The position numbers were made by a program, and so were the translations under genes. Shown one piece after another: positions 15,066 to 58,513 of a stretch of 64,000 bases of DNA; position 1 is the stretch's first letter, and every line of letters begins with the position of its first letter. The DNA is from Minisyncoccota bacterium (GTDB lineage: Bacteria > Patescibacteriota > Minisyncoccia > UBA6257 > XYB1-36-10), in contig JBAZJH010000001.1 of NCBI GenBank assembly GCA_041651415.1, positions 87,713 through 151,712 on the forward strand. Reading direction: 5' to 3'. The notes below the pieces were generated by a model that did not search any database, was not told the DNA's origin, and worked only from the letters and a program-made list of their open reading frames with translations.

Positions 15066-15111
15066 CGCGCTTTGTTTTAACAAAGTTAGCCGAGGGCCTT
15101 TTTTATTTTGT

Positions 15112-15162
15112 TTATTAAATCTTCGCGAAAACCCCGCGTGTTAGCTATAAGGGGTTTGACAA
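15112..15162 (+). repeat. Repeat family A, truncated copy A4 (left arm plus first hairpin only).
   Basis: ttattaaatcttcgcgaaaaccccgcgtgttagctataaggggtttgac matches the 5' half of the A elements. Confidence 0.55.
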
Positions 15163-17248: not shown

Positions 17249-17278
17249 CGCGTCCGATTAATCTCGGACGCTTTTTTT
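17249..17278 (+). terminator. Intrinsic terminator (gcgtccgattaatctcggacgc + T7).
   Basis: A 9-bp stem plus a T-run sits 40 nt after the 15718..17208 stop. Confidence 0.65.
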
Positions 17279-17375
17279 ATTAAATCTCCGTAGAAACATT
17301 GCGCGTTAGCGCAAGGTTTCTACGGCTAAGATTTAATAAAACCCCGTCGTAGGCGGGGTGAAACTCAAGATATTA
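17277..17375 (+). repeat. Repeat family A, copy A5 (lacks the terminal GNRA hairpin).
   Basis: ttattaaatctccgtagaaacattgcgcgttagcgcaaggtttctacggctaagatttaataaaaccccgtcgtaggcggggtgaaactcaagat. The arms CCGTAGAAAC/GTTTCTACGG differ from other copies in a way that keeps the stem paired. Confidence 0.7.
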
Positions 17376-17529: not shown

Positions 17530-20500
17530 ATGTTGCTTTGGAGTTTATTTATTAAAATTATTATGGAAAATATTTTTTATATTTTTAGGGCGATAAATTT
17601 GTTTTTTTCAAAGACGGCAAAGTCGGCCGCAAAAAACAAACCGCTTGCTATAGCTTTCGTGGCTTTACTCGCAAGCGGTTTTTTTATTATTAATTATGCT
17701 TTGGCTGTTAATGGAGTAATGATTACTCCCGCAAGCGGAGGGGTTAACATTTCCATTGATACTACTTCTGCTACAGGAGGAACAGGAACTTTTAAATCAC
17801 TGAGTGGACCTGGGATTACTGAAACAACAGCGGGTAATATTTCTATAGGTCTTCACACAATTCAATTACCTTCTGGATATGAATTTGACACAAGTTCTCC
17901 CATCTCAGTTGTTGTTATAGGCGATATAGGTTTAACTTCTACTTCAATAATTCCGAATCAAACATCTTTTACTTTTGAAGTAACTAATATTTCTTCTTCT
18001 CCTAGTATTATTGGTTTTAGTAATTTAAAAGTTAGACCAACGGGAATTATTGCTCCTTCTTCCGGAAATATAACTTATTCCGGTTCGGGTATTGTCAGTG
18101 TTGATGGTAATACTAATTTTGGAACTCTTTCTTTGATTCCTGGAGCAGTTAAAAACCTTGCTTTTTCCACTCAACCGGCCGGTTCTGTTTATGGCGAAAT
18201 TTTAAGTCAACAACCGGTTGTAAAAACTCAAGACCAATTCGGTAATAATTCCGTTAATGGTTTGGCGGAGAGTAAAATAGTATCTATTTCCTTAACTTCT
18301 GGTTCGGGTTCTTTAATTGGAACTACAGAAATTGATATCGGAACCGGCTCCGGAAACGGAACTGCTTCTTTTTCGGATTTATCCGTAAATAATGTCGGTC
18401 CGGGAAAGGTATTAAGCGTAACAGCTGATGGCCTTATTGGTGTTTCGAGTGATTCTTTCGAAATAACAGTAAGGAACATCGAAGTAACGGCTGATAATAA
18501 AACGAAAGTTTATGGTGAAACTGATCTGGGTTTAACCTATCAAATAACATATGGTTCTCTTGTCGGCTCGGATGCTTTTACCGGAAATATTACTCGTGAT
18601 TCTGGGGAAGATGTCGGCGATTATTCTATAAAGAAAGGGGATTTAACTTTAAGCGAAAATTATAATCTTTCTTTTATTCCTGCTTCTTTTACTATCACCC
18701 CGAAAGCCTTATCTGTCTCGGGAATCTCTTCAATCCTTAAAACATACGATGGAAACACCACTGCTGGGGTTGATTTTAGCACTACCTCTCTTGTCGGGAT
18801 TGTCGAGGGCGATGAAGGTTCAGTGACTCTTAACCCATCTTCATATTCCGCTTCTTTTGACAACAAAAATGTGGAAACAGGAAAAACAGTGACTGTTTCC
18901 GGATTAACATTAGATGGAGCCAAAGCAGGGAATTATTCTCTGACTCAGCCGACTCTTAATGACGGAGTAATTACGCCAAAAACTCTCACTGTCACCGCTA
19001 CCGGAATTGATAAGGAATATGACGGCACAACAAACGCTACCGTCACTCTTTCTGATGATAGAGTTTTAGGAGATGATTTAACGTTGGGGTATACAAGCGC
19101 TTTATTCACGGATAAAGATGTCGCTAATGATAAAAGTATTGATGTTACCGGCATTATTATGAATGGCGTTGATGCCGAAAATTATTCTCTTTCAAGCGAT
19201 CACGTTACCGCTTACGCAGATATAAATAAAAAACATATTACCGCATCGCTTATTTTACAGAACAAAACTTATGATGGAGATACGGGCGCAACTTATTCTG
19301 GTGACCATGTTCAATTAGTCGGAGTCATTTCAGGAGATGAGGTTCTTGCGAGTGATGGCGTTTCTAAATCTTTTGCAGATAAAAATGTTGGTGAAAATAA
19401 ATTAGTAACCGCTCTTGGTATTGTCTTAAGCGGCGTGGATTCTGGTAATTATGATTTTGATGGAATCGGGACAGGAACGGCTACAATTTCGAAACGGCCT
19501 ATTATTGTTACTGCTGTTTCTAACAAAAAAATTTATGATGGAACGGCGGTTTCATTGGGCATTCCTGATGTTACGCCAGATGGTTTTGCTACAGCTATTC
19601 AGACAGGCGACACGGCCGAATTTTCTCAAGTCTTCGATAATAAGAATGTCGGTGTGGGAAAAACGCTTACGCCAAGCGGATTAGTTGATGATGAAAATAA
19701 CGGAAACAATTATTCTTATACTTTTGTTTCTGTTTCTACGGGTGAAATTACTATTAAGTCAATTGAAGTTACCGCTCAATCTGATACTAAAGTTTATGAC
19801 GGCACAAATGCATCGAGTGTACCTCCTAAGGTAGACAATTTAGAAGGTGAGGATTTTGTCGGGACAATTCCTACTCAAACTTATGATAATGCGATTGTCG
19901 GAACTGGAAAAACTTTAACCGCCAGCGGTCTAGTGATTGATGACGGGAATGGCGGAGCTAATTATGAAATTCATTATATAATTGATTCAACTGGAGAGAT
20001 TACAGAAAAAGAACTTACCGTCACCGGAGCATCTTCTGTTGAAAAAATCTATGACGGAAATACTAATGCCGAAGTTAATTTCGGTTCTGCCTCTCTTGTC
20101 GGGATTGTCGAGGGCGATGAAGGTTCAGTGACTCTTAACCCATCTTCATATTCCGCTTCTTTTGACAACAAAAATGTGGAAACAGGAAAAACAGTGACTG
20201 TTTCCGGATTAACATTAGATGGAGCCAAAGCAGGGAATTATTCTCTGACTCAGCCGACTCTTAATGACGGAGTAATTACGCCAAAAACTCTCACTGTCAC
20301 CGCTACCGGAATTGATAAGGAATATGACGGCACAACAAACGCTACCGTCACTCTTTCTGATGATAGAGTAGAGGAAGATGTTCTGACTCCTGGGTACACA
20401 AGCGCCGCTTTTGAAGATAAAAATATTGGGACAGAAAAAACAGTGACTGTCTCCGGCATTACTAAATTAGGAACAGATGCGAATAATTATATTCTTGGCA

Positions 20501-23500
20501 ATACAACAGCCAGCGCATTGGCTGATATAACGAAAAAAGATCTTTCCGTCACAATTACTGTTGCTGATAAAGTTTATGATGGAAATACAACTGCTACTAT
20601 TGGTGAGCGCGTGCCGGTTGGTTTGATTTCTCCTGATGTCATTGATTTAAGTGGAGGAACAGCAGTTTTTTCTGACGCAATTGTCGGCAATAACAAGCCT
20701 GTTACTGCTACGGGTGTAATTATAGAAGGAACTGATGCCGGGAATTACGAATATAACGGAACGGCAACAGGAACGGGTAATATTCTTCCGGTACCGACAA
20801 CGGTTTATGTTGATGATGATTTTTCAGAGGAAGGAGGGGCGGGAGATTATACTTTTGGCTATAACGCTTTTGACACAATTCAAGGAGGTATAAATGCGGT
20901 AGAAGTTGGTGGAACGGTAAACGTGGCGGCGGGAAATTATACGGAAGTCGAGCAGATCGTTATCGATAAAAATCTATCCATCGTTGGCGAAAACAAAGAA
21001 ACAACGATTATTAAGCCAGCGCAAAATACAACTAACACGGGTCATGCTGATTCCGCTGCCTGGATTTTAGTTAATAGTGATAAAACATTTAATTTAAGCA
21101 AGGTTACTTTAGATGGTAACGGCCATTTGATAGCTATCGGCATACTTTCTCACGGTCATGGCACTATAAATGATAATATTTTCACAAATATCGCTTATAA
21201 TCCCAGCGGACCTGACTATAAGGGAATGGCGATAGAACTTTACGGTTCGGATATGACAATCGAGAATAATGAATTTGCGAATATCGGAAGAATCGGTGTG
21301 TTTAATGGAAATGGAACGAATTCGCATATTATCGGAAATACTTATACCGGAAAAGGAGCGGGTGATTGGCTGGATTATGGATTTGAAGTGGGACGCGGCA
21401 GCCAATCGGAAATTAGCAATAACATAATAACAAACAACATTGGTGTTGCTTCTGACGGTTCAACTTCCGCCGGTATTCTTGTAACGAGTTTTTTTGGTCC
21501 GGGAATATCAAACGCGACTATAACCGGAAATTCGATCTCTAATTCCACAGACGGAATTGCTGTTGGTTATGATGGAAGCGACGCAAGCATAGTTGTTGCT
21601 CATACTAATAAATTCAGCGGCAACACAAAAGATATAAATTCTACCAAACCATCTGTTGATGGAACGAGAAACTGGTGGGGAACAATAAGCGGAACGGAAA
21701 TTGCTAATAAAGTCGTTGGCGATGTGAGTTATCGCCCATGGTGCACGGAAGTTACTTGCACTGTTATCGATACCAACGGCGCGCCTACGGTAACTATTTC
21801 TTCCGTTGCCGGTTCTTTGACAAAAACTTCTCCAATCCCTATAACCGTAACTTTCAGCGAACCTGTTTATGATTTTAATGAATCTGATGTGACTGTTTCA
21901 TTAAATGCGGGGGTGACAAATTTCTCTGAAGTAAGCGGTAGCACAAGTTATACTTTCGATTTAACTCCAAATGTCGGCGTGGATGAAGGAGAAATAACAG
22001 TTGATGTGGCAGCTGAAAAAGCTTGGGACGAAGCTGGAAATTATAACTTAGCGGCAACGCAATTTGTTATTACTTATGATTCGGTAATTCCTACTCTTTC
22101 TTCTGTTTCTATTTCTTCAAATAATATTAATCATTCTTTAGCTAAGGTGGGAGATATTATTACTTTAAGCTTTACCGCAGATGAAGAGATTCAAAATCCA
22201 ACCGTGATCATTGCTTCTAATTCTATTACCGCCACAAATAGTATTGGTAATGATTGGACTGCGGTTTATACAATGCAAAGTGGCGATGCTGAGATAGTTT
22301 CGTTTGAAATTAATTTTAACGATTTAGCGGGAAATGCGGGAACGAAAGTAACAGCTACAACTGATTTGAGTTCTGTGACTTTTGATGAAACCGCGCCGGT
22401 AGTGGCGATTACTTCTCCTCTGAATGAAACAAGAGTAAATGGTGACACATTGATTTCCTTTACTGATACTTCAACTTCGCCTAAATGTTCGGTAAATAAT
22501 AACAGTTGGACTGTTTGTGAAAGCGGAGTAACAAAGCTCTCTGATATTGCTCAATTTTCTGGATTAGGCCAGGGAATATTTACGCTTTATCTTAAAGATA
22601 TTGATGAAGCGGGAAATGAAGGAACAACAAGTGTGAGTTTAATAAAAGATTCAATTGCTCCTGAAGTGGAATCTTATACCCCGACCAATTTGGCGGTGGG
22701 AGTGGACCCGACCGGAAATGTGACTGCTTTATTCAGTGAGAAAATGAGTTTGGCAACTATTAATTCCACTAATATAGAATTAAAAAAGAGCGGAGAAGTA
22801 ACCGAAGTTGAAACGGACTTAACTTTAAGCGAAGACGGAAAAACTTTAACAATCAATCCGGTCGCGACTCTTCTTAATAACTCCACTTATGAAGTGAGAA
22901 TAACAACCGGCGTAACTGATGAGGCGGGAAATAATTTGGCATCGGAGGAAACGTGGTCGTTTACCACTTCCGGCAGTTATTCGTTCACTTTATCTAAAGG
23001 AACTAAAGGCTGGAACTTGGTTTCTCTCGGAGTTGTACCGAATGACACGAATATTGACGCAGTGCTTGGAAGTGCGAAAAGCAACATTGAATCGGTTTGG
23101 ACTTATGACCCGGTTAATTATTCTTTGAACGGAGGATGGAAAGTTTATAATCCGGCGGAATCAGGAACCAGCAGTTTGTTAAATATGACAGCCGGTTACG
23201 GATATTGGATAAGCTATAAAGGAACAGAAGCGGCGACAGTTTCCGGTCCGGGAAACTTGGTTCTGGAAGGAAATAATGTTCCGCCGTCAAGAACCTTGCA
23301 AGCCGGATGGAATTTAATCGGTTATTACCAAAAAGAGAATACGACAAGCGTTTTGGCATCGCTGGCTTTGAAACATAACCTGGATGATTATTGGACGATG
23401 CTTCTTGGATACAACAACACTACAAAACAAATGACTTCTCTTACAGGCGATAATTTATTGAATCCGGGAGAAGGATATTGGGTGCTACTTGACGGAAAGG

Positions 23501-23541
23501 CAACGGACTCCTATATCTATACTATCGGTGACAGCCAATAA
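17530..23541 (+). CDS. Giant secreted surface/adhesin-like protein (2003 aa) with multiple MBG-type repeats, a right-handed beta-helix region and Ig-like (Big) domains.
   Basis: A hydrophobic signal segment follows basic residues (…KNKPLAIAFVALLASGFFIINYALA). At least 8 K(V/T/I)YDG…GNYS/NYNL MBG-like repeats are present. Beta-helix rungs end in TRNWWGT. Big/SbsA-like segments occupy the C-terminal third. The start could instead be the Met at 17563. Confidence 0.85.
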   Translation: MLLWSLFIKIIMENIFYIFRAINLFFSKTAKSAAKNKPLAIAFVALLASGFFIINYALAVNGVMITPASGGVNISIDTTSATGGTGTFKSLSGPGITETTAGNISIGLHTIQLPSGYEFDTSSPISVVVIGDIGLTSTSIIPNQTSFTFEVTNISSSPSIIGFSNLKVRPTGIIAPSSGNITYSGSGIVSVDGNTNFGTLSLIPGAVKNLAFSTQPAGSVYGEILSQQPVVKTQDQFGNNSVNGLAESKIVSISLTSGSGSLIGTTEIDIGTGSGNGTASFSDLSVNNVGPGKVLSVTADGLIGVSSDSFEITVRNIEVTADNKTKVYGETDLGLTYQITYGSLVGSDAFTGNITRDSGEDVGDYSIKKGDLTLSENYNLSFIPASFTITPKALSVSGISSILKTYDGNTTAGVDFSTTSLVGIVEGDEGSVTLNPSSYSASFDNKNVETGKTVTVSGLTLDGAKAGNYSLTQPTLNDGVITPKTLTVTATGIDKEYDGTTNATVTLSDDRVLGDDLTLGYTSALFTDKDVANDKSIDVTGIIMNGVDAENYSLSSDHVTAYADINKKHITASLILQNKTYDGDTGATYSGDHVQLVGVISGDEVLASDGVSKSFADKNVGENKLVTALGIVLSGVDSGNYDFDGIGTGTATISKRPIIVTAVSNKKIYDGTAVSLGIPDVTPDGFATAIQTGDTAEFSQVFDNKNVGVGKTLTPSGLVDDENNGNNYSYTFVSVSTGEITIKSIEVTAQSDTKVYDGTNASSVPPKVDNLEGEDFVGTIPTQTYDNAIVGTGKTLTASGLVIDDGNGGANYEIHYIIDSTGEITEKELTVTGASSVEKIYDGNTNAEVNFGSASLVGIVEGDEGSVTLNPSSYSASFDNKNVETGKTVTVSGLTLDGAKAGNYSLTQPTLNDGVITPKTLTVTATGIDKEYDGTTNATVTLSDDRVEEDVLTPGYTSAAFEDKNIGTEKTVTVSGITKLGTDANNYILGNTTASALADITKKDLSVTITVADKVYDGNTTATIGERVPVGLISPDVIDLSGGTAVFSDAIVGNNKPVTATGVIIEGTDAGNYEYNGTATGTGNILPVPTTVYVDDDFSEEGGAGDYTFGYNAFDTIQGGINAVEVGGTVNVAAGNYTEVEQIVIDKNLSIVGENKETTIIKPAQNTTNTGHADSAAWILVNSDKTFNLSKVTLDGNGHLIAIGILSHGHGTINDNIFTNIAYNPSGPDYKGMAIELYGSDMTIENNEFANIGRIGVFNGNGTNSHIIGNTYTGKGAGDWLDYGFEVGRGSQSEISNNIITNNIGVASDGSTSAGILVTSFFGPGISNATITGNSISNSTDGIAVGYDGSDASIVVAHTNKFSGNTKDINSTKPSVDGTRNWWGTISGTEIANKVVGDVSYRPWCTEVTCTVIDTNGAPTVTISSVAGSLTKTSPIPITVTFSEPVYDFNESDVTVSLNAGVTNFSEVSGSTSYTFDLTPNVGVDEGEITVDVAAEKAWDEAGNYNLAATQFVITYDSVIPTLSSVSISSNNINHSLAKVGDIITLSFTADEEIQNPTVIIASNSITATNSIGNDWTAVYTMQSGDAEIVSFEINFNDLAGNAGTKVTATTDLSSVTFDETAPVVAITSPLNETRVNGDTLISFTDTSTSPKCSVNNNSWTVCESGVTKLSDIAQFSGLGQGIFTLYLKDIDEAGNEGTTSVSLIKDSIAPEVESYTPTNLAVGVDPTGNVTALFSEKMSLATINSTNIELKKSGEVTEVETDLTLSEDGKTLTINPVATLLNNSTYEVRITTGVTDEAGNNLASEETWSFTTSGSYSFTLSKGTKGWNLVSLGVVPNDTNIDAVLGSAKSNIESVWTYDPVNYSLNGGWKVYNPAESGTSSLLNMTAGYGYWISYKGTEAATVSGPGNLVLEGNNVPPSRTLQAGWNLIGYYQKENTTSVLASLALKHNLDDYWTMLLGYNNTTKQMTSLTGDNLLNPGEGYWVLLDGKATDSYIYTIGDSQ
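18785..19064 (+). repeat. Intragenic exact duplication, copy 1 (280 bp), inside the 2003-aa gene.
   Basis: Identical at nucleotide level to 20090..20369. The offset is 1305 bp, which is in frame (435 codons). Confidence 0.85.
20090..20369 (+). repeat. Intragenic exact duplication, copy 2 (280 bp).
   Basis: See copy 1. The encoded 92 aa (SLVGIVEGDEGSV…TLSDDRV) are identical in both copies. Confidence 0.85.
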
Positions 23542-26320: not shown

Positions 26321-26418
26321 TTTTTTCATGTGTGTCTGATATATGAGCTGATATATGAGATGGCAGAGCTAATCATAATAAAGAGGGTTTCAACCCCTCT
26401 TTTTCTTTAGCATTTTTT

Positions 26419-26454
26419 TAGCATCAATAGGTACATATGTACCTATTGATGCTA
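26419..26454. repeat. Family B palindrome, type 1 (TAGCATCAATAGGTACATATGTACCTATTGATGCTA, a perfect 36-bp palindrome).
   Basis: Read directly from the sequence. It recurs at 28803 and 57873. Confidence 0.8.
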
Positions 26455-26481
26455 AACAGCAGAGCAAAGAAATAAGATTTC

Positions 26482-26519
26482 CCATCTATGTTTGGTATAT
26501 ATGTACCAAACATAGATGG
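26482..26519. repeat. Family B palindrome, type 2 (CCATCTATGTTTGGTATATATGTACCAAACATAGATGG).
   Basis: 38-bp palindrome with 1 mismatch. It shares the GGTA(C/T)ATATGTACC core and recurs at 28744. Confidence 0.75.
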
Positions 26520-26691
26520 AGGGAACAAAAAAATGCTTTAATTTCATAGATATAATTAATGACTTGCGATGCCATTAATTTTAAAAAGTGGAAAACTTTT
26601 CTTTTATTTTTTGCGGTTTTAGGATATGTGTTAATTAGGACTTAAACATTCAAATAGAGCTGTTGAGACGGCTGAACTTGGAAGGAGAAAA

Positions 26692-28653
26692 GTGATGAAA
26701 AGTTTTAAGAAGCAAAGAGCGTTTTTTGCGGCGGCGATTTTTATATTGGCGGCGGCGAGCGGATTTTCAGATTCAGTGAAAGATTGGAGAAAAGATATAG
26801 AGGTTGGGGATATTCTTTATGACCCGATTGGCGCTGTTATTGACTTGAAGATAATTGAATCAGTCAAAACGGGACATATAGGAATTTATGTGGGAGACGT
26901 TGAATATGGAGGAATAATTTGGCCGAATCAAGTGATTGAAGCAACACTTGTTGGTGGCGGAGTTTATATGATTGGAATAGAGGTTTGGGATTATCCGACG
27001 ACGAAAGAAGCTTGGATTCTCAGACCTAAAGCTCCGTCTGAATTAAAGAGAAAGGCGGTAGAATTTACTGAAAGCCAAATCGGAAAAGGATATACAAAGC
27101 TTAACTTTTTTTCAAGAAATCCTAGTCCGAATAACGAGCGTTGGTATTGTAGTGAACTTATTTGGGCGGCTTATTTTCAAGAAGGGAAGGGAATTGATTT
27201 GGCTAGCGTAAATATCGAGGAGGTGGGCGGAATAATAAATTCTGCCGTGTCGCCGCTTGATATTTTTGTTGATGACGACGTTTATTCTGTAAGCTATCAC
27301 GGAGATTACGATGTGATTCCGGAAGATGCTTTCAGAGTGTATAACGCAAATTTAGGGACGAGATATTTTTCCTTAAAAGAGGCGATAGAGGAAAAGTACT
27401 TGCGAGAGGGTGACATTATTTTAATTGAACCCGGAGGTTATCTGGGGGGAGGAAAAGTAGAAGAAAAGGGAGTAGTTTTGCGAGCGGTGGATTTTGACAA
27501 AGAAAGAAGAGTGGCAAAAACGGTAATTAGATCAGTAAAGAGCGTATTACAAACACTAGCTGATCTTGTTTCTTTTGAAGACCGGCCGACGGTGATCACA
27601 ATTTTATCTTCGGATGTGGTTTTAGAGGGGCTAACTATCACCGGGGCTTGGGGGAGCGAGGAAGTCGGAGGAATAAAAATAACAGAAGGAGCGGATAATT
27701 GCCGAATCTCCAATTGTATTTTATTCAATAATCCGTATGGAGTCGGAGCGGTTGATTCCTCCCATCATGTAATCAGAGACAATTCTTTTCTTTTTAACGA
27801 TTATGGCATTGGGTTTGTCCGATCTTACGGCGGCGAAGTTTTTAAGAATAGGATTGAGGGAAGTTTTAAGAAAGGATTTGTCGCAGGTGAGAATGAAGAA
27901 GCGTGCGCTTCAACGGCAGCGGTTGAAGAAATTCCGGGAAGCGATGTTCTTTTGTCTCCTTATAGAGATTTAAGGGATAAAATTCTTAAACCGCAGACAG
28001 TTTCCGATTACTATCGGTTTTCTTTGCCGGTTTTAGAAGTTTTTCGGAAAGATAAAAACTTAAAGAAGGAAGCTAGAGAGCTGATTTCTTTTTGGTCGCC
28101 GAAGATAAAACTTTTTTTTTCTGAAAATAAAGATTTTGAAATTAGAAGAGAAGAGGCGGAAAGAACGGCGGAGTTTTTGGAAAAACTTTCCGGTGGCTTG
28201 GAGAATTCTGAAACAAAAATTTTTGTGGAGAATCTTCTGAAAGAGGCGGAAATATCCGGCGGGAAAAAATTCAGCGAAGCGGTAAAAAATTCCTCGTTTT
28301 TTGAAGAAAAAAAATCTTCCACGAAGGCAAAGACGGAAAATTCCAAAAAGCCGACCTTTGTTTATTTAAATGATTTTTTAAATAACAAAGAATGGTCGGT
28401 TGGAAATTATCCGGAAGGATTGTTCTATTGGTTCTCGCCCGCCGAAATAAATTATTGTTTTAATAATAAAAATTTTTTCGGATTTCTTGGAAACTATTGG
28501 GGAGAGCCGGCAATGTCTTTTTTGGATAAAGACGGGAATGGAATTGGAGACAGCGCTTATGGCAATGATCTTTATCCTTTAATGGAGGGAGAGGATTGTT
28601 ATGGAAAAAAGAAGGCGGAAAAAACGGAAGTTTCGGATTGGATTTTATATTGA
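26692..28653 (+). CDS. Secreted multidomain protein: an N-terminal permuted papain-fold (NlpC/P60-like, His-before-Cys) domain, central right-handed beta-helix repeats and a C-terminal Asp/Gly-rich module.
   Basis: Signal peptide. HIGIYVGD (His) precedes WYCSELIWAAY (Cys) in the order typical of permuted NlpC/P60 (YiiX/YaeF-like) enzymes. Beta-helix rungs are …ITGAWGSEEVGGIKITEGADNCRISNCILFNNPYGVGAVDSSHHVIRDNSF…. The C-terminus is DKDGNGIGDSAYGNDLYPL. Confidence 0.6.
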   Translation: MMKSFKKQRAFFAAAIFILAAASGFSDSVKDWRKDIEVGDILYDPIGAVIDLKIIESVKTGHIGIYVGDVEYGGIIWPNQVIEATLVGGGVYMIGIEVWDYPTTKEAWILRPKAPSELKRKAVEFTESQIGKGYTKLNFFSRNPSPNNERWYCSELIWAAYFQEGKGIDLASVNIEEVGGIINSAVSPLDIFVDDDVYSVSYHGDYDVIPEDAFRVYNANLGTRYFSLKEAIEEKYLREGDIILIEPGGYLGGGKVEEKGVVLRAVDFDKERRVAKTVIRSVKSVLQTLADLVSFEDRPTVITILSSDVVLEGLTITGAWGSEEVGGIKITEGADNCRISNCILFNNPYGVGAVDSSHHVIRDNSFLFNDYGIGFVRSYGGEVFKNRIEGSFKKGFVAGENEEACASTAAVEEIPGSDVLLSPYRDLRDKILKPQTVSDYYRFSLPVLEVFRKDKNLKKEARELISFWSPKIKLFFSENKDFEIRREEAERTAEFLEKLSGGLENSETKIFVENLLKEAEISGGKKFSEAVKNSSFFEEKKSSTKAKTENSKKPTFVYLNDFLNNKEWSVGNYPEGLFYWFSPAEINYCFNNKNFFGFLGNYWGEPAMSFLDKDGNGIGDSAYGNDLYPLMEGEDCYGKKKAEKTEVSDWILY

Positions 28654-28743
28654 TTTTTGTGTTTTCTAAAGCTTCGGTTTAGTCCGGAGCTTTTTATTTT
28701 TTAGCAAGAACTGGGAGTGAAAGTTTTTTTGGAGCAATTCTTT

Positions 28744-28781
28744 GCATCCACGTTTGGTACATATGTACCAAATATGGATGC
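28744..28781. repeat. Family B palindrome, type 2, second copy (GCATCCACGTTTGGTACATATGTACCAAATATGGATGC).
   Basis: An imperfect palindrome with the same core, lying downstream of the 653-aa gene. Confidence 0.7.
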
Positions 28782-28802
28782 GGGAAAATAGAAAAAATTT
28801 TG

Positions 28803-28838
28803 TAGCATCAATGGGTACATATGTACCTATTGATGCTA
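28803..28838. repeat. Family B palindrome, type 1, second copy (TAGCATCAATGGGTACATATGTACCTATTGATGCTA).
   Basis: It mirrors the 26419 copy, so the arrangement around the gene is type1-type2-[gene]-type2-type1. Confidence 0.8.
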
Positions 28839-28970
28839 AATGAAAAAAGTTTTAAATGCGGAGATTTAATAAAAAATAATTTAATAGTAGTGTCAGTTAT
28901 AAATTTTAATGAAAAGATAAAAAAGTTTTCAACACGAGAAAGAAAAATTTTTCTGATATAATTTAAAAAA

Positions 28971-30653
28971 GTGTCTGAAATATTTTTACAACTGGGAATC
29001 GTAATGGGAGTGGCGATTATCGTGACAGCCGCGACGAGATTTTTGAAGCAACCTTTGATTGTCAGCTATATAATCACCGGACTTATTATCAGCGTCGGCA
29101 TTGGCAATGTTTACGATTTTTCCATTTTGGAATCTTTTGCTCATCTTGGAGCAATTTTGCTTTTGTTTTTGGTGGGTTTGGGATTAAATCCGGAACTGGT
29201 TCGAGAAATGAGTCGAACGGCGTTTTTGACCGGACTCTGGCAGATAATTTTTACTTCGGTTTTAGGTTATCTGATTGGGGTGGCTTTAGGATTTAGCGAG
29301 ATCACTTCTTTATATCTTGCGGTAGCTTTCACTTTTTCAAGCACAGTTATTGTAGTGAAGCTGCTGCACGAAAGAAAAGACGAAGAAACTCTTTACGGAA
29401 GAATCGTTATCGGGCTACTTCTGGTTCAAGATTTAGTGGCGATGATTTTTCTTATTTTTGTTTCCGCTTTCAGTAAAATCGGAGAAGGAGGCATAGGAAG
29501 TTTAATGAGTTTATCTTTGTTTAATTTATCGGCGATTACTCTTTGTTCTTTTATTTTAGGATATTACATCATTCCAAAGGTGGATAAGATTTTTGCCAAG
29601 AGTTCCGAAGCTCTTTTTATATTTTCTTTGACGGTGTGTTTTGCGGTAGTGGCGGCTTTTTATCTTCTTGATTTCCCGATAGAAATCGGAGCGCTTTTGG
29701 CGGGCGTGATTTTAGCTTCCTCTCCCTATCAAAGAGAGATAGCATCAAGAATCAAGCCGTTGCGGGATTTCTTTTTGGTTATCTTTTTTGTGATGCTTGG
29801 GTTTTCCATGAATTTGGAAAGCATAACGCAATTTTGGAAGGAAGCGGCGGTTTTTTCGGTTTTTATTTTAATCGGCAATCCGCTTGTGATGATGGTGGTA
29901 ATGAGGCTTCTCGGATATTCCAAAAAAACGGGATTTTATTCAGGGCTGGCAGTTGCTCAAATCAGCGAATTTTCACTGGTGCTTCTTTCGCTTGGAGCGA
30001 CGCTTAATCACATTGACCAAGCGATGGTGAGTTTTGGAACTTTGGTCGGGCTTATTACAATAACAGTTTCTTCATATATGATTTTTTATGCGGATAAGCT
30101 CTATAATATTTTAAAAGATTATCTTTTCATTTTTGACGTGAAAGAGGCGAAAGAAAAAGAAGAAAAAAAGAAACAAAAAAATTATGGCGTGGTAGTTTTC
30201 GGTTTTCATCGGCTGGGAGGAGGAATTTTGAAATATCTGAAAAAAACGAGGACATCTATTTTGGTGGTGGATTATGACCCGGAAGTGGTGGAAGATTTGA
30301 AGAGAAAGAAAATAGACACGCAGTTTGGAGACGCAAGCGATTTGTCCTTCTTGGAAACTTTGCCGCTTCGAAAGGCAAAATTGGTGGTTTCCACCATTCC
30401 GGAAATGGAGGATAATTTGACGATTTTAAAATATCTAAAAAAGATAAAGGCGGGAGCGGCGACAATTGTGGTGGCGGAATATTATGAAGACGCAAAAAAG
30501 CTTTATCGCGAAGGGGCGGAATATGTGGTGATGCCGCCGCATCTTGGAAGAAGGTATATCGGGGAATTAGTCGGTCAGCTTCGTTTTGATAAAAAGAAAT
30601 ACAGTCACGAAAGAAAGAGGCATTTAAAAGAAATAGAAATGGCGGAAAAATAA
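28971..30653 (+). CDS. Monovalent cation:proton antiporter-2 (KefB-like) with a C-terminal TrkA-N/RCK domain.
   Basis: 560 aa with a GTG start. It has about 12 TM helices typical of CPA2, then VVVFGFHRLGGGILKYL…ILVVDYDPEVVEDL…, a Rossmann RCK fold. Confidence 0.85.
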   Translation: MSEIFLQLGIVMGVAIIVTAATRFLKQPLIVSYIITGLIISVGIGNVYDFSILESFAHLGAILLLFLVGLGLNPELVREMSRTAFLTGLWQIIFTSVLGYLIGVALGFSEITSLYLAVAFTFSSTVIVVKLLHERKDEETLYGRIVIGLLLVQDLVAMIFLIFVSAFSKIGEGGIGSLMSLSLFNLSAITLCSFILGYYIIPKVDKIFAKSSEALFIFSLTVCFAVVAAFYLLDFPIEIGALLAGVILASSPYQREIASRIKPLRDFFLVIFFVMLGFSMNLESITQFWKEAAVFSVFILIGNPLVMMVVMRLLGYSKKTGFYSGLAVAQISEFSLVLLSLGATLNHIDQAMVSFGTLVGLITITVSSYMIFYADKLYNILKDYLFIFDVKEAKEKEEKKKQKNYGVVVFGFHRLGGGILKYLKKTRTSILVVDYDPEVVEDLKRKKIDTQFGDASDLSFLETLPLRKAKLVVSTIPEMEDNLTILKYLKKIKAGAATIVVAEYYEDAKKLYREGAEYVVMPPHLGRRYIGELVGQLRFDKKKYSHERKRHLKEIEMAEK

Positions 30654-36190: not shown

Positions 36191-36206
36191 AATCACTTAA
36201 AATTTT

Positions 36207-36330
36207 TTATTAAATCTCCGCTTCAAACCCTGCATGCTATCTTAAGGGGTTTGAAGCGGTAAAGATTTAAAAAACCCCGCCATAGGCGGGGTGAAACTTT
36301 AAGATTCCACGGCCGTGAGGCCGTGAAGTT
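36207..36330 (+). repeat. Repeat family A, copy A6.
   Basis: …atctCCGCTTCAAACCC-tgcatgctatcttaa-GGGTTTGAAGCGGtaaagatttaa…ccccgccataggcgggg…ccacggccgtgaggccgtga. It has a perfect 13-bp first stem and a GTGA tetraloop on the third. Confidence 0.75.
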
Positions 36331-36336
36331 TTTTTT

Positions 36337-40489: not shown

Positions 40490-40610
40490 AACTTCACGGC
40501 CTTACTGCTACAGAGTCTTAAAGTTTCACCCCGACCAAAGTCGGGGTTTATTAAATCTTAGCCGCGAAAACCTCGCGCTAACGCGCGGGGTTTTCGCGAA
40601 GATTTAATAA
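40490..40610 (-). repeat. Repeat family A, copy A7 (reverse orientation), abutting the ppsA stop.
   Basis: The reverse complement reads ttattaaatcttCGCGAAAACC-tcgcgctaacgcgc-GGGTTTTCGCGaagatttaataaa… with a compensated first stem and CCCCGAC/GTCGGGG second stem. Confidence 0.7.
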
Positions 40611-40612
40611 AA

Positions 40613-44053: not shown

Positions 44054-44087
44054 ATTAAAAAAGAGCCGATTTCTCGACTCTTATTTT

Positions 44088-55904: not shown

Positions 55905-57890
55905 TCAATTCAGTTTATAAATGAAGATGGAAGTGCCGGCGCGATAATCGGAAAGAGGAACGTCAGAATAGTTTTGAGGGACATTTCTTAAAGTTTTAAG
56001 CCAAAGATAGCTGTCTTCCGGTTTTCTTGCTGATTCCATGCCGGGGGCGAGATCTGCCATTGCCCCTTCTAGAGTGTTAACAGAAACTGCCAGCCAATTT
56101 ATGCCTTCTTCTTGAGGATTATTTTTAGCCGACTGCCAAGGAATGGCTTTATCTCCAAAACGGTAAGCAAGATTGTCGCCGCCAAAATAGTCCACGGCGA
56201 TTTTATCAATATTGTTTTTTTCGACAAAAACCGCAAGCTCTTTCAAATCCTGGCCCCAATCATAGTTGGAATCAGTGACAAAGCGATAGCCATTTTTTGT
56301 TCCGCCGCCAAACTCGTTAAAATAAGAAAGATAATTGGGATAAGCGAGGGCGGACTCAATTGAAAACCAAAGCAAAACAGCAAAAAGAATAACCAACTTA
56401 TTGGCGTTCTTTGAAATAAGGCCGAGAGTTTTAAAGAATCCGGAGAACCAGGAAGATGATTCTGATTTTGATTCAAAATAAAAAGATTTTTTCAGAGCGG
56501 AGACGGTTAAAATGTAAATGAAAGGAATAGTCGGCAAAATATGGCGGACACCGATATTTAAGGGACTGCTTACGCTATAAGCCCAATAAAAAACCACAAA
56601 GACCAACATAGAAAATTCCGCAAAGTTAGTGTTTAGATATTCGGCGATTTTTATATGGCCTGGCTTTAGAGAGCGGAAAAGGCGGATAACGGCCGAATTG
56701 AAGGCAAAAAGGATAAGAAGAAGAACCGGCAGAGCTTCTTTTAGAAGATAAACGACGGGGAAATAATACCACCAGCCGCCGCCGCCGACTTCTCCTAAAA
56801 AGAAAGCGGTGTTTCCTCCGGAAGACCTTTGCATAACCATAAGAACGCCTAAGAGATATTCAGCCGCGGGACGAGTGAGAGAATTTCCAGCCAGCCAAAT
56901 ATCAAGGTCGGCCAGGCATCTTTTTCCCGAACAGGTTTCTCCGACTGGAGTGGGGCTGCCGGCAAAGGAAGTAAGAATTTCTCTAGTGTCATCGACTTGC
57001 CTTTCTACCGGATAATTAAATGTAAAAACAAAATAAACGGCATAAACTAAGAGGAAACCGATAAAGAAGATAGAGAAAAGCCATAAGATGTAAACGCCGG
57101 CTTTTTTAAAGAAAAATTTTATTTTGTGGTTCGGGGCAAAACGGCTAAAACCTTTTAAGCTGACAAGAAAATGAATAAGAGCGATAAAAATAAAGAAAGG
57201 AATAAGAAGGACGGCGGAAAATTTCAAAAGTTGCGCTATGCCAAAAACCAAACCGGCTATGATTAAATTTTTTCTGTTCGGTTTTTCCAGAAAATTCAAA
57301 AAGGAAAAAGTGGCGGCAAAAATGCCGAAAGCGGCGGCAAGGTCGGTTGTGACATAATGACCGTGAGCGAGAACGATGGGAGAAAAGGCAAAAAGAAAAG
57401 CGGGCAAAATTCCCCACCATTTTCCAACAAGCTTGGCAGACCAAAAATAAATCAGAAAAACAAGAAGAATAGTCAAAAGAATAGGAGCGAGGCGGGACCA
57501 AAAAATGATGGCGTCGGCGTTGTTTCCCGATTCAAAAATAAACTGGGTTCCCACCCACCATTGGCCGTTTATTTCTTCCTGCCAAGATTCTTTTTCTAAA
57601 GGAAAGTTTAAATCCATAAAAACAAGAGGCAGAGCGGAAAGCGCTTTCAAAAGCGGGGGATGTTCGGGATTCAGGCGAAAGTCAAAATATTTATCGTAAC
57701 TAAAGCCGGCGGGAATATGCGCCAGTTCATCCATAATGGCTGAATCGCGACTTGAGGCAGAAAGCATTAAAAATAAAGAAAGAAGAGCGACTAAAGATAT
57801 AATTAAAAAAGGAGCGGAGAAAATTGTTTTTTTTATCATAGTAAATTTTAAATTATTAAGCGTTTTTTTCTTTAGCATCAATGTGTACAT
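55905..57890 (-). CDS. GT-C fold glycosyltransferase (PMT/ArnT-like, family 39-type).
   Basis: 661 aa polytopic protein with a first-loop DE motif (MDELAHIPAG), about 11 TM helices and a C-terminal soluble domain. The annotated start lies inside the B3 palindrome, so the real start is probably the Met at about 57839. Confidence 0.7.
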   Translation of the reverse strand: MYTLMLKKKTLNNLKFTMIKKTIFSAPFLIISLVALLSLFLMLSASSRDSAIMDELAHIPAGFSYDKYFDFRLNPEHPPLLKALSALPLVFMDLNFPLEKESWQEEINGQWWVGTQFIFESGNNADAIIFWSRLAPILLTILLVFLIYFWSAKLVGKWWGILPAFLFAFSPIVLAHGHYVTTDLAAAFGIFAATFSFLNFLEKPNRKNLIIAGLVFGIAQLLKFSAVLLIPFFIFIALIHFLVSLKGFSRFAPNHKIKFFFKKAGVYILWLFSIFFIGFLLVYAVYFVFTFNYPVERQVDDTREILTSFAGSPTPVGETCSGKRCLADLDIWLAGNSLTRPAAEYLLGVLMVMQRSSGGNTAFFLGEVGGGGWWYYFPVVYLLKEALPVLLLILFAFNSAVIRLFRSLKPGHIKIAEYLNTNFAEFSMLVFVVFYWAYSVSSPLNIGVRHILPTIPFIYILTVSALKKSFYFESKSESSSWFSGFFKTLGLISKNANKLVILFAVLLWFSIESALAYPNYLSYFNEFGGGTKNGYRFVTDSNYDWGQDLKELAVFVEKNNIDKIAVDYFGGDNLAYRFGDKAIPWQSAKNNPQEEGINWLAVSVNTLEGAMADLAPGMESARKPEDSYLWLKTLRNVPQNYSDVPLSDYRAGTSIFIYKLN

Positions 57891-57908
57891 ATGTACCTAT
57901 TGATGCTA
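57873..57908. repeat. Family B palindrome, type 1, third copy (TAGCATCAATGTGTACATATGTACCTATTGATGCTA).
   Basis: Perfect 36-bp palindrome in the GT-C promoter / mpg divergent region. Confidence 0.8.
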
Positions 57909-57970
57909 TGAATTTTTATTTCGGCGAACTTGCCGGAAAAAATGTTAATATGCTTAAATTATAAAACAAA

Positions 57971-58513
57971 ATGGCAGGTATGTTAATAAAAAAAGAAGAT
58001 TTTTTATTAAAAAACACGCCGAGTTTGGCAAAAAAGCTTTTGGGGAAAATTTTAGTAAAAAAAATCGGCAATAAGGAAATGCGAGCGGTGATTTTAGAAA
58101 CGGAAGCTTACAACGGATTTTTAGACAAAGCTTCCCATGCGCATAAAGGAAAAACAGGAAGAAACATGATTATGTTTCAAGAAGCGGGGGGCTGGTATGT
58201 TTATTTTGTTTATGGAAATCATTTTATGCTGAATCTTGTGACGGGGCCGAAAGAATATCCGGCGGCGATTTTGATAAGAGGCGTGGAAATTTTACCGGAA
58301 AGAAAAAGAATAGACGGGCCGGGACGGCTGACAAAGTTTTTAAAAATCGATAAAAATTTGAATGGAGAAGCGGTCGGAAAAAAGAGCGGGTTGTGGATTG
58401 AAGACGGCGGAGTTAGAATAAGCCAAAAAGAAATAGAGGAACTGCCTCGGGTAGGAGTGGATTACGCAGGAGAAGAATGGGCGGGAAAATTGTGGAGGTT
58501 TAGATTAAAATAA
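57971..58513 (+). CDS. mpg: DNA-3-methyladenine glycosylase (Mpg/AAG family).
   Basis: 180 aa. …RAVILETEAYNGFLDKASHAHKGKTGRNMIMFQEAGGWYVYFVYGNHFMLNLVTG…AAILIRGVE… matches the Mpg core (ETEAY…D.ASH…T.RN..MF…YVY..YG.H..LNVV). Confidence 0.8.
   Translation: MAGMLIKKEDFLLKNTPSLAKKLLGKILVKKIGNKEMRAVILETEAYNGFLDKASHAHKGKTGRNMIMFQEAGGWYVYFVYGNHFMLNLVTGPKEYPAAILIRGVEILPERKRIDGPGRLTKFLKIDKNLNGEAVGKKSGLWIEDGGVRISQKEIEELPRVGVDYAGEEWAGKLWRFRLK

What the first reader, a model, noticed from the sequence alone, without database searches (positions are those of the whole stretch)
26419..28838. Gene for a secreted NlpC/P60-like beta-helix protein bracketed by nested perfect palindromes (type1-type2-gene-type2-type1)
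There are two palindrome types that share the core GGTA(C/T)ATATGTACC. Type 1 is the 36-bp TAGCATCAAT(A/G)GGTACATATGTACCTATTGATGCTA and type 2 is the 38-bp CCATCTATGTTTGGTAYATATGTACCAAAYATRGATGG. They occur in mirror order on both sides of gene 26692..28653, and a further type-1 copy lies at 57873 in the GT-C promoter region. Perfect palindromes this long are unusual. Because they flank one gene symmetrically, the options are a mobilisable cassette (attC-like or MITE-like ends), cruciform or hairpin regulatory sites, or operators for a dimeric regulator.
Basis: seen in the sequence. Interest (0 to 1): 0.6.

Follow-up and report, generated by a model that had tools for sequence, protein, structure and literature searches.

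The report
Dispersed hairpin repeats, not a cassette
The long palindromes on both sides of this gene are real, but they are copies of a small hairpin-forming repeat that has been dropped into several gaps between genes in this tiny uncultured bacterium. They do not mark the ends of a mobile gene, and they are not a conserved on/off switch for it.

Summary
The five palindromes exist where reported: T1 at 26419, 28803 and 57873, and T2 at 26482 and 28744. They are far beyond chance, although only one is perfect. The host is a Candidatus Paceibacterota (CPR) genome.

The gene between them (26695-28653) encodes a Peptidase_C92 plus beta-helix protein. It sits in conserved order (DeoC, small ORF, gene A, Kef-like antiporter, PD-(D/E)XK nuclease) in relatives down to 33% identity. 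Those relatives have short intergenic gaps without T1 or T2, so the gene is not a cassette.

In the nearest relative (83-88% nucleotide identity) the promoters of the antiporter and of the MPG glycosylase are conserved, but the palindromes are missing. T1c lies inside a 73-bp insertion. Identical T1 and T2 copies occur in another metagenome at unrelated places, just after stop codons and between convergent genes.

Similarity between copies stops sharply at the palindrome edge. Subfamilies keep the centre GTACATATGTAC but swap arm sequences symmetrically (10 of 18 pairs covary). The same genome carries two more small repeat families.

Best reading: REP-like dispersed hairpin repeats, with the bracketing coincidental or due to local clustering. 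The mobilising enzyme and any function are unknown. The centre matches a cyanobacterial-type LexA box, an untested lead.

The parts
26417..26456 (.). T1a: perfect 40-bp palindrome TTTAGCATCAATAGGTACATATGTACCTATTGATGCTAAA (36-bp family unit at 26419-26454)
   Evidence: DNA hairpin -17.2 kcal/mol, z = -11; identical 40-mer in L124 from another metagenome
26482..26519 (.). T2a: 38-bp palindrome CCATCTATGTTTGGTATATATGTACCAAACATAGATGG (1 mismatched pair)
   Evidence: arm changes relative to T2b and the L140 copy are compensated on both arms
28744..28781 (.). T2b: 38-bp palindrome GCATCCACGTTTGGTACATATGTACCAAATATGGATGC (2 mismatched pairs)
   Evidence: close to the T2 copy in L140 3796-3833
28803..28838 (.). 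T1b: 36-bp palindrome TAGCATCAATGGGTACATATGTACCTATTGATGCTA (1 mismatched pair, G.T)
57873..57908 (.). T1c: 36-bp palindrome with 2 mismatched pairs, lying in the divergent gap between the PMT_2 glycosyltransferase and the MPG glycosylase. It sits inside a 78-nt stretch (57837-57914) that corresponds to only 5 nt in the nearest relative.
   Evidence: comparison with L146
26409..26537 (.). Left doublet block: T1a and T2a enclosed by an 11-bp inverted repeat, AGCATTTTTTT (26409-26419) and AAAAAAATGCT (26527-26537). As a single strand it folds into a two-hairpin structure closed by an outer stem. An 11-nt tandem duplication, TTTCTTTAGCA / TTTTTTTAGCA, lies at 26402-26423.
   Evidence: I4, D3; -37.5 kcal/mol, z = -11. 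No equally clean outer repeat exists around the right doublet.
26695..28653 (+). Gene A, the resident gene between the doublets and not part of the repeat: Peptidase_C92 (permuted papain-like amidase) plus NosD/Beta_helix, with a hydrophobic N-terminus
   Evidence: Pfam; exact protein on record from ATG 26695; syntenic orthologues at 56, 50, 40 and 33% identity; local G+C is like the neighbours
26380..26402 (+). Intrinsic-terminator-like hairpin plus T-run that ends the upstream small ORF. T1a starts 15 nt after it.
26584..26649 (+). Second terminator-like hairpin (26584-26612) and the conserved 5' block TTAATTAGGACTTAAACAT (26631-26649). In relatives these directly follow the small ORF. The doublet lies upstream of both.
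   Evidence: sequence comparison by eye with L003 and L005
28668..28693 (+). Intrinsic terminator of gene A. T2b starts 50 nt after it.
28858..28876 (-). Fragment (GCGGAGATTTAATAAAAAA) of the unrelated ~130-bp dispersed repeat, lying right next to T1b
   Evidence: (D17)
28923..28962 (+). Conserved promoter block of gene B (AAGTTTTCAACA ... TGATATAAT). It is shared with L003, L005 and L148, whether or not a palindrome is present upstream.
28971..30653 (+). Gene B, a resident gene: Kef-type cation/proton antiporter (Na_H_Exchanger plus TrkA_N). The start is probably GTG 28971, because the N-terminus MSEIFLQLG is conserved.
   Evidence: Pfam
57919..57973 (+). Conserved MPG promoter and 5' block, nearly identical in the nearest relative, which lacks T1c

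Best explanation
T1 and T2 are two subfamilies of one lineage-specific family of small (36-40 bp) dispersed palindromic repeats in Paceibacterota genomes. The closest known analogue is the REP/BIME family of proteobacteria.

Each copy is a self-contained unit that can fold into a 16-18-bp hairpin (as single-stranded DNA or RNA) or extrude as a cruciform. Copies have been added to dispensable intergenic DNA, mostly between the 3' end or terminator of one gene and the promoter of the next.

The two T1+T2 doublets on either side of the amidase/beta-helix gene are insertions into two neighbouring spacers of an old, syntenic gene pair. They are not the ends of a unit that carries the gene.

What is shown:
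- the repeats are real;
- their similarity stops sharply at the unit boundary;
- they occur at unrelated loci;
- they are absent from orthologous sites in close and distant relatives;
- the resident promoters and gene order are conserved;
- dyad symmetry is kept by compensated changes, while the centre GTACATATGTAC and the outer (G)CATC stay fixed.

What is inferred:
- the unit spreads as a hairpin intermediate handled by a trans-acting enzyme encoded elsewhere in the genome (by analogy with RAYT and IS200/IS605 Y1 transposases), and the conserved hairpin tip is the recognition determinant;
- arm symmetry is kept by selection for pairing or by hairpin-templated correction;
- any effect on neighbouring genes (3'-end hairpins, insulation, a fragile site for rearrangement) is secondary.
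For: (1) Sharp unit boundaries. Five T1 copies are 94-100% identical over 36-38 bp and unrelated outside that stretch. They show no flanking conservation and no target-site duplication. The three T2 copies behave the same way.

(2) Unrelated loci. In metagenome Ga0265297 an identical T1 lies 5-8 nt after the rnhB stop codon (L124). Another lies 35 nt after the alaS stop codon (L128). A T2 lies between convergent genes, 17 nt after a stop codon (L140).

(3) Presence or absence at orthologous sites.
- The nearest relative, GCA_028709185.1, is 83-88% identical at the nucleotide level.
- It has 5 nt where the window has a 78-nt stretch containing T1c, and the MPG promoter block is intact.
- It has the conserved gene-B promoter with no T element upstream.
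- No T, F2 or 130-bp repeat was found in about 22 kb of that relative.

(4) Gene A is resident. The order DeoC, small ORF, gene A, gene B, PD-(D/E)XK is conserved in L005, L007 and L008. In L003 the gene A-gene B adjacency is kept, but YceG and a DUF3977 ORF lie upstream of gene A. The intergenic gaps in these relatives are 91-265 bp, against 374 and 350 bp here.

(5) The family exists in another species with different arms but the same centre: L003 6838-6885 and the end of L145.

(6) Symmetry by covariation. 94% of cells are paired, 10 of 18 pairs change on both sides, and 0 of 500 shuffles reach the observed covariation score. Slid controls give 28-42% paired. Arm sequence is free while pairing is kept.

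(7) The same genome holds two more small repeat families, so repeat invasion of spacers is general here. These are the F2 palindromes, again with a shared centre and variable arms, and a ~130-bp three-hairpin repeat.

(8) The elements lie outside the conserved promoter blocks and downstream of canonical terminators.

(9) No Rfam family matches. No true copies occur in viral contigs.
Against: - Copy density is modest for a REP family: 5 copies at 3 loci in about 84 kb of the source genome. The whole genome could not be read.
- No candidate mobilising enzyme (Y1 transposase or RAYT) is encoded in the 84 kb examined, so the spreading mechanism rests purely on analogy.
- The only two T1+T2 doublets seen flank the same gene in mirrored order. 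Chance explains this only moderately well (adjacency p about 0.15, times one bit for the order).
- A relative at 56% identity (L003) has a palindrome with a related centre in the same gene A-gene B spacer. That could mean the site is old and retained, i.e. functional.
- The strictly conserved centre equals a known operator consensus, the cyanobacterial LexA box.
Confidence: 0.6

Rival explanations
1. The palindromes are operators for a dimeric DNA-binding regulator, possibly a LexA-type repressor. The protein would bind the 14-16-bp centre (A)GGTACATATGTACC(T), and the elements would place the amidase gene, the Kef-like antiporter and the MPG glycosylase in one regulon.
For: - The centre matches the cyanobacterial LexA box consensus RGTACNNNDGTWCB. 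It equals the lexA-upstream consensus aggtACAtaTGTacct listed in PMC2248561.
- The only matches to that consensus in 64 kb are the T elements.
- One copy lies in front of a DNA-repair gene, MPG.
- The centre is the part conserved across species.
- In Actinomycetota the same 14-mer is a tandem site in front of TetR-like genes, so the sequence can serve as an operator.
Against: - The nearest relative keeps the MPG and gene-B promoters but has no site. L005, L007 and L008 also have none.
- The sites sit about 140 and 200 bp upstream of the gene-B -10, and upstream of a terminator-like hairpin in front of gene A.
- Other copies follow stop codons or lie between convergent genes.
- Copies are identical over 36-40 bp with sharp edges, far beyond a 14-16-bp contact region.
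- The flanking genes have no common function.
- Neither LexA nor any regulator is linked to the sites in 84 kb.
Confidence: 0.13
2. The hairpins act in RNA. When transcribed as part of 3' or 5' untranslated regions they would protect upstream mRNA from 3' exonucleases or serve as RNase III processing sites, as shown for some REP sequences. They would be kept for that reason.
For: - Three copies in Ga0265297 start 5-35 nt after stop codons of genes that have no other obvious terminator.
- The stems are 16-18 bp and very stable.
- Symmetry is kept by compensated changes, including several G.U-compatible cells.
Against: - In the window, four of the five copies lie downstream of canonical terminators with T-runs, so they should be poorly transcribed.
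- None has a following U-tract.
- T1c lies in a divergent promoter gap.
- The elements are dispensable at orthologous sites.
- There is no strand bias that would point to an RNA, and no Rfam family matches.
Confidence: 0.12
3. T1a/T1b and T2a/T2b are recombination sites. The 2.3-kb segment carrying the secreted amidase gene could then be inverted or excised, as a phase-variation switch or fragile site.
For: - Self-complementary sites on both sides can pair in either orientation.
- The gene encodes a secreted or surface protein, a typical target of phase variation.
- In the nearest relative, synteny breaks exactly in the gene A-gene B spacer and no gene A orthologue was found.
- A large serine recombinase lies about 45 kb away, at L143 19414 onwards.
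Against: - All assemblies retrieved show one orientation and no empty site.
- No recombinase is adjacent.
- The gene's own conserved 5' block lies inside the segment, so inversion would not switch its expression.
- The other junction of the relative's rearrangement carries no T element.
- Solitary copies occur elsewhere.
Confidence: 0.06
4. The gene plus palindromes is a mobile cassette, with attC-like or MITE-like ends that mobilise the gene.
For: Nested symmetric order of two palindrome types around one gene. Long spacers on both sides.
Against: - The gene sits in the same neighbourhood in four more distant relatives without the flanks.
- Its composition is not atypical.
- It has its own conserved upstream block and terminator.
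- There are no target-site duplications.
- There are no attC core sites and no integron integrase.
- T1 and T2 also occur singly at loci with no cargo.
Confidence: 0.02

Closest known systems
REP / BIME (PU) elements and REPINs of Enterobacteria and Pseudomonas, mobilised by RAYT (TnpA-REP) transposases
   Same: - Short (20-40 bp) extragenic palindromes that form hairpins.
- Typically found just after genes or between convergent genes.
- Variable presence at orthologous sites between close relatives.
- Several sequence subtypes occur in clusters (Y and Z types in BIMEs; T1 and T2 doublets here).
- Families are species-specific.
   Different: - The T elements are (near-)perfect palindromes with no asymmetric foot. 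The conserved part is the hairpin tip, not a 5' GTAG.
- Copy density seen here is low.
- No RAYT gene was seen.
- The host is a reduced CPR genome, for which I know of no described REP family (my own knowledge; the paper search found none).
Neisseria small repeats (dRS3 and Correia elements) and other bacterial MITE-like intergenic repeats (ERIC, RUP, BOX)
   Same: Several families of small structured repeats share the spacers of one genome and expand them. The window also has a ~130-bp three-hairpin repeat and a second palindrome family.
   Different: MITEs have terminal inverted repeats around a non-palindromic body, plus target-site duplications. T1 and T2 are nothing but the palindrome, and no duplications are visible.
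Cyanobacterial-type LexA (SOS) box RGTACNNNDGTWCB
   Same: The central 14-16 bp, (A)GGTACATATGTACC(T), is an exact match to the consensus.
   Different: - The element is 36-40 bp and is conserved as a whole.
- It is not conserved in front of orthologous genes.
- It often lies at 3' ends of genes.
- Whether the host has a LexA is unknown.
Integron attC sites and gene cassettes
   Same: An imperfect-palindrome recombination site next to a single gene. Structure matters more than sequence.
   Different: - No R''/L''-L'/R' core sites and no integrase.
- The gene has its own promoter region and is syntenic in relatives.
- The palindromes occur away from any cassette.

Membership tests
REP/BIME (RAYT-associated repetitive extragenic palindromes) | Short (about 20-40 bp) extragenic palindromic unit able to form a stable hairpin | tested here: met
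   36-40-bp units, all in intergenic DNA. Hairpins fold at -9 to -17 kcal/mol.
REP/BIME (RAYT-associated repetitive extragenic palindromes) | Many dispersed copies per genome (tens to hundreds) | tested here: inconclusive
   5 copies at 3 loci in about 84 kb of the source genome. A further 3 loci lie on separate contigs of another metagenome.
REP/BIME (RAYT-associated repetitive extragenic palindromes) | Conserved GT(A/G)G tetranucleotide at the 5' foot of the hairpin | tested here: not met
   GTAG precedes only 2 of 5 T1 copies (T1b and L128); the others have TTAG. T2 has none.
REP/BIME (RAYT-associated repetitive extragenic palindromes) | A cognate RAYT / Y1 transposase gene in the genome, usually flanked by REPs | tested here: inconclusive
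   No Y1_Tnp or any other transposase appears among the window ORFs scanned against Pfam or in the gene tables of the flanks. Most of the genome is unseen.
REP/BIME (RAYT-associated repetitive extragenic palindromes) | Variable presence at orthologous intergenic sites between close relatives | tested here: met
   T1c and the gene-B doublet are absent from GCA_028709185.1, while genes and promoters are 83-88% identical.
MITE | Terminal inverted repeats around an internal body, with flanking target-site duplications | tested here: not met
   Conservation ends at the palindrome edge, and there are no direct repeats at the flanks of 5 T1 and 3 T2 copies. Only the left doublet has an 11-bp outer inverted repeat.
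Integron gene cassette / attC | attC with R''-L''/L'-R' core sites (RYYYAAC / GTTRRRY) at the 3' end of a promoterless, variably present gene, and an IntI integrase nearby | tested here: not met
   No such core sites are seen in the sequence. No integrase is present among the window ORFs scanned. The gene is syntenic in four relatives and has a conserved upstream block.
LexA (SOS) operator, cyanobacterial type | Match to the consensus RGTACNNNDGTWCB | tested here: met
   T1a, T1b and T2b match exactly and are the only matches in 64 kb. The consensus is taken from PMC2248561.
LexA (SOS) operator, cyanobacterial type | Site conserved in the promoters of orthologous genes across related genomes | tested here: not met
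   The site is absent upstream of MPG and gene B in the nearest relative, and upstream of gene B in L005, L007 and L008.
LexA (SOS) operator, cyanobacterial type | The host encodes LexA, and the box precedes lexA and recA | not testable with these tools
Invertible or excisable segment (inverton) | Both orientations, or an empty site, detectable in sequence data, with a cognate recombinase | tested here: inconclusive
   Only one arrangement appears in the assemblies on record. No adjacent recombinase was found; a large serine recombinase lies about 45 kb away. Raw reads could not be examined.

The most novel reading that the evidence does not exclude
The T family could be a self-propagating hairpin element of CPR bacteria whose invariant tip is a functional LexA-type or other regulator box. 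Its spread would then seed new regulator-binding sites next to arbitrary genes, acting as 'mobile operators'. The copies could also act as recombination-prone sites: the nearest relative has a synteny break exactly in the gene A-gene B spacer. In that reading the doublets around the secreted amidase gene would be an active switch or fragile module rather than inert insertions.
Probability: 0.08. Interest if true: 0.65.

Novelty: new member of a known kind. Interest (0 to 1): 0.3.

Why it matters
CPR/Patescibacteria genomes are small and usually described as streamlined. A lineage in which at least three families of small structured repeats have recently expanded the spacers, while a relative at 83-88% identity lacks them at every orthologous site examined (about 22 kb), shows that such genomes can still be invaded by selfish or structural DNA.

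The family gives a clean example of a palindrome whose arms drift while symmetry and the tip are kept. That pattern points to a hairpin-recognising activity that has not yet been identified in these organisms.

There is also a practical consequence. Perfect palindromes longer than the assembly k-mer end Logan contigs (L002 and L145 both stop inside one), so they fragment CPR assemblies.

For the gene itself the result is deflationary. It is an ordinary resident gene, not a mobile cassette.

Tried and rejected
- **Cassette idea.** Rejected by the synteny in L003, L005, L007 and L008.
- **Inverted segmental duplication of one doublet.** Rejected because the T1-T2 spacers do not align in either orientation.
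- **Intrinsic terminators.** Rejected. No T-run follows the hairpin on either strand, and canonical terminators precede the elements.
- **CIRCE (HrcA operator).** Considered because of the TTAGCA...TGCTAA ends. There is no match even with 3 mismatches, and the spacing is wrong.
- **Known RNA families.** None at the gathering threshold. Only sub-threshold matches to generic hairpin families turned up.
- **Phage or viral origin.** The core pattern gives 20 single chance hits with no extended symmetry. The arm-plus-core pattern gives 8 one-arm chance hits. F2 gives none.
- **Genome-collection scan with the 16-nt core.** The source genome is not in the collection. Many hits are unrelated palindromes: terminators in Firmicutes, tandem sites in front of TetR-like genes in Actinomycetota, and a separate palindrome family in a Saccharibacteria contig.
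- **Metagenome scan.** Only three true hits, all from one sample.
- **The 2017 paper on the Patescibacteria LexA regulon.** It could not be read, so I do not know the LexA motif reported for this group.
- **Restriction-site readings** (KpnI, NdeI, SfaNI and FokI sites inside the elements). Considered by eye and dropped, because they are not consistent across copies.
- **parS, dif and protelomerase sites.** Considered from memory and dropped, because of the sequence, the copy number and the positions.


Full report
**The observation**

- T1a is perfect and extends to a perfect 40-mer: 26417-26456, TTTAGCATCAATAGGTACATATGTACCTATTGATGCTAAA.
- T1b (28803-28838) has one mismatched pair.
- T1c (57873-57908) has two mismatched pairs.
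- T2a (26482-26519) has one mismatched pair.
- T2b (28744-28781) has two mismatched pairs.

The 14-nt core, allowing up to 2 mismatches, gives 10 strand-matches in 64 kb against 0.04 expected. As single strands the units fold at -9 to -17 kcal/mol, with z-scores from -4 to -11. The same sequences appear in independent ENA, Logan and NCBI assemblies.

'Perfect' applies to one copy only. The two T2 copies differ at several arm positions. Every unit is its own reverse complement, so the 'mirror order' is a single bit. The T1-T2 spacings differ (64 versus 58 bp) and the spacers do not align in either orientation. Three occupied spacers out of about 38 include an adjacent pair 15% of the time.

**Organism and genes**

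The protein between the doublets is on record as a NosD-domain protein of a Candidatus Paceibacterota MAG.
- Gene A (26695-28653) is a Peptidase_C92 permuted papain-like amidase fused to a NosD/beta-helix region.
- Gene B (28971-30653) is a Kef-type antiporter, Na_H_Exchanger plus TrkA_N.
- T1c lies between a divergent PMT_2 glycosyltransferase and an MPG DNA glycosylase.

No integrase, transposase or regulator lies next to any copy. The nearest helix-turn-helix protein is an XRE-type ORF at 42446-42754.

**Is the gene a cassette?**

No. Orthologues at 50, 40 and 33% identity sit in the order DeoC aldolase, small ORF, gene A, gene B, PD-(D/E)XK nuclease (L005, L007, L008). The 56% orthologue in L003 keeps gene A next to gene B but has YceG and a DUF3977 ORF upstream.

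The spacers in these relatives are 91-265 bp, against 374 and 350 bp here. None contains T1 or T2.

What is conserved in those spacers is the terminator of the preceding gene and a promoter or 5' block:
- TTAATTAGGACTTAAACAT in front of gene A;
- AAGTTTTCAACA...TGnTATAAT in front of gene B.

In the window these blocks lie downstream of the palindromes. Local G+C is unremarkable.

**Is it an operator?**

The best test came from the nearest relative, GCA_028709185.1, which is 83-88% identical at the nucleotide level over coding regions.
- In the PMT_2/MPG spacer the MPG promoter block is nearly identical. The relative has 5 nt where the window has the 78-nt stretch 57837-57914 that contains T1c.
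- Upstream of gene B the relative has a terminator and the conserved promoter, with no T element.
- In about 22 kb of that relative there is no T, F2 or 130-bp repeat at all.

In the window, T1b and T2b are centred about 140 and 200 bp upstream of the gene-B -10. T1a and T2a lie upstream of a terminator-like hairpin in front of gene A.

In another metagenome (Ga0265297) an identical T1 lies 5-8 nt after the rnhB stop. Another lies 35 nt after the alaS stop. A T2 lies between convergent genes.

These positions, the lack of any functional link among the flanking genes, and the absence from orthologous promoters all argue against a conserved operator.

**What the copies look like**

An alignment of five T1 copies with flanks shows 94-100% identity over 36-38 bp and nothing outside. 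There is no target-site duplication. T2 behaves the same way.

T1 and T2 are related. Both have an outer (G)CATC and the centre GGTACATATGTACC, and they differ by a symmetric 2-3-nt length change and substitutions in the middle of the arm.

A third arm type occurs in the organism at 56% identity:
- CTCTATCACAAATTTGTACATATGAACAAATTTGTGATAGAG lies between gene A and gene B (L003);
- GCATCACAAATTCGTACATATGTACGA... lies at the end of another contig from the same sample (L145).

On an ungapped alignment of nine copies, 94% of cells pair and 10 of 18 pairs change on both sides. None of 500 shuffles reaches the observed covariation score, and slid controls give 28-42% pairing.

So the arm sequence is free, pairing is kept, and the tip is fixed. 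That pattern is expected for a hairpin-based element. A single dimeric protein reading 36 bp would not readily produce it.

**Context in the genome**

The window carries two further small repeat families.
- F2 palindromes, ATTCCAAYATTCT-CA-AGAATRTTGGAAT, lie at 2079, 5747, 44079, 48595 and 50404, with an arm variant at 2752. Again the centre is shared and the arms vary.
- A ~130-bp three-hairpin repeat has at least eight full or partial copies. One fragment abuts T1b.

Two F2 copies are also missing at orthologous sites of the nearest relative. Extending the source genome by 10 kb on each side added no T copy, so there are 5 copies at 3 loci in about 84 kb.

**Most likely mechanism**

T1 and T2 are REP-like dispersed palindromic repeats that were inserted into dispensable spacer DNA. 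The two doublets around gene A are independent or locally clustered insertions.

The following steps are inferred, not shown:
- spread through a hairpin intermediate handled by an enzyme encoded elsewhere, by analogy with RAYT and IS200/IS605;
- recognition of the conserved tip;
- maintenance of symmetry by selection or by hairpin-templated correction.

I put this reading at about 0.6.

**What keeps the case from being closed**

- Copy density is modest.
- No mobilising enzyme was seen.
- The only two doublets flank one gene.
- L003 has a related palindrome in the same spacer.
- The nearest relative has a synteny break exactly in the gene A-gene B spacer. There, gene B follows zf_Tbcl_2, VTT and GT4 genes that lie left of the window in the source genome.
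- The centre, (A)GGTACATATGTACC(T), is an exact match to the cyanobacterial LexA box consensus and to the lexA-upstream consensus tabulated in PMC2248561.

I could not read the paper on the Patescibacteria LexA regulon, and I could not reach lexA or recA of this genome. The LexA link therefore remains a lead.

**Controls and dead ends**

- Viral contigs hold only chance matches.
- The genome-collection scan did not contain the source genome. It returned unrelated palindromes around the same 14-mer: terminators, tandem sites in front of TetR-like genes in Actinomycetota, and a separate Saccharibacteria family around a PaaX-like gene.
- Rfam gave nothing for the region.
- CIRCE does not match.

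**Verdict**

The cassette and operator readings are not supported. The structural (hairpin) reading holds.

The thing is a new member of a known kind, a REP-like repeat family, in a phylum where I know of no described example. Interest is modest at 0.3. It would rise if the whole-genome census, a linked transposase or LexA, or read-level recombination evidence turned up.

Noticed in passing
window 3733-3859, 7099-7230, 36203-36334 (+); 8616-8749, 40483-40615 (-); partial copies at 211-274, 15107-15147, 17273-17372, 28858-28876; also L140 8497-8627 and L145 1797-1934: A ~130-bp dispersed intergenic repeat made of three hairpins (ATTAAATCT...AGATTTAAT, CCCCGCC...GGGGGG, CCACGGCC...GGCCGTGG). Copies are 75-100% identical. 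It is present in related organisms but not in about 22 kb of the nearest relative.
   Followed up: partly
window 2079-2125, 2752-2787, 5747-5793, 44079-44125, 48595-48646, 50404-50450: A second family of long palindromes (F2: ATTCCAAYATTCT-CA-AGAATRTTGGAAT). One variant has different arms but the same centre (ATCTATTCTCAAATTCTTGAGAATTTGAGAATAGAT), and one copy has a 20-nt loop insert. The copies at 48595 and 50404 are absent at the orthologous sites of L146.
   Followed up: partly
window 28654-28970, compared with L147 4634-4809 and L148 2233-2408: In the nearest relative, gene B is preceded by zf_Tbcl_2, VTT, GT4, PAP2 and DEAD-helicase genes. In the source genome those genes lie left of the window (L141 15087-19555). 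So about 34 kb, including gene A, is missing or moved, and the breakpoint falls in the spacer that holds T2b and T1b. No gene A orthologue from that organism was found.
   Followed up: partly
start of L002 (position 1 falls inside T1a) and end of L145 (15383-15411): Logan contigs stop inside perfect palindromes, a few nucleotides from the centre. These repeats therefore fragment short-k-mer assemblies of such genomes.
   Followed up: no
window 62271-62387 (+): A LOOT RNA (Rfam RF03000) scores 75 bits against a gathering score of 46. It is the only Rfam match at gathering threshold in the window. There are no tRNA genes in 64 kb.
   Followed up: no
L143 13366-21053 (about 65.8-73.4 kb in window coordinates, beyond the right end): An island-like stretch with GmrSD, AbiJ, AAA_25, an HTH_17 excisionase-like gene and a large serine recombinase, ending at ychF. 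In the relative L145, MPG and ychF are about 0.8 kb apart with a single 190-aa ORF between them. The radical-SAM/SPASM gene and the unknown ORFs at window 58.8-63.5 kb may belong to the same insertion.
   Followed up: no
L062 1207-1311 and 1847-1900; L068 6178-6213 and 6267-6290 (Saccharibacteria contig CAZAAL010000001.1): A PaaX_M-domain gene is bracketed by long palindromes (42-54 bp) that share ACATAATT-N4-CATATG-N4-AATTATGT. A further copy plus a half-copy lie between uvrD/pcrA and a NUDIX gene. This is a separate CPR palindrome family with the same layout: fixed CATATG centre, long symmetric arms.
   Followed up: partly
L033 6690-6735 and L036 6205-6250 (Actinomycetota MAGs): Tandem sites, ATCGGTACATATGTACCGAT followed by ATTGGTACAnTTGTACCG, lie immediately upstream of an ORF whose N-terminus looks TetR-like by eye (not scanned against Pfam). 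The same 14-mer may serve there as an autoregulatory operator of an unrelated regulator.
   Followed up: no
window 26402-26423, 28697-28708, 43008-43022: The motif TTTAGCA(T), which forms the outer end of T1, also occurs on its own. It appears as an 11-nt tandem duplication just before T1a, right after the gene A terminator, and inside a short palindrome TTTAGCATGCTTTAA. It could be a preferred target or a remnant (9 TTTAGCAT matches against 3.8 expected).
   Followed up: partly
window 28954-28973: The conserved extended -10 (TGATATAAT) of gene B ends 8 nt before the conserved GTG start (N-terminus MSEIFLQLG, shared with relatives). The mRNA is therefore probably leaderless or nearly so. Database gene calls start 11 codons later.
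   Followed up: no
window 8799-14471 (-) and 17530-23541 (+): Two giant ORFs (1890 and 2003 aa) with internal repeats: 45-78-nt Gly/Thr/Val-rich units, and a 300-nt duplication at 18715 and 20020. The ENA assembly breaks inside the first one.
   Followed up: no
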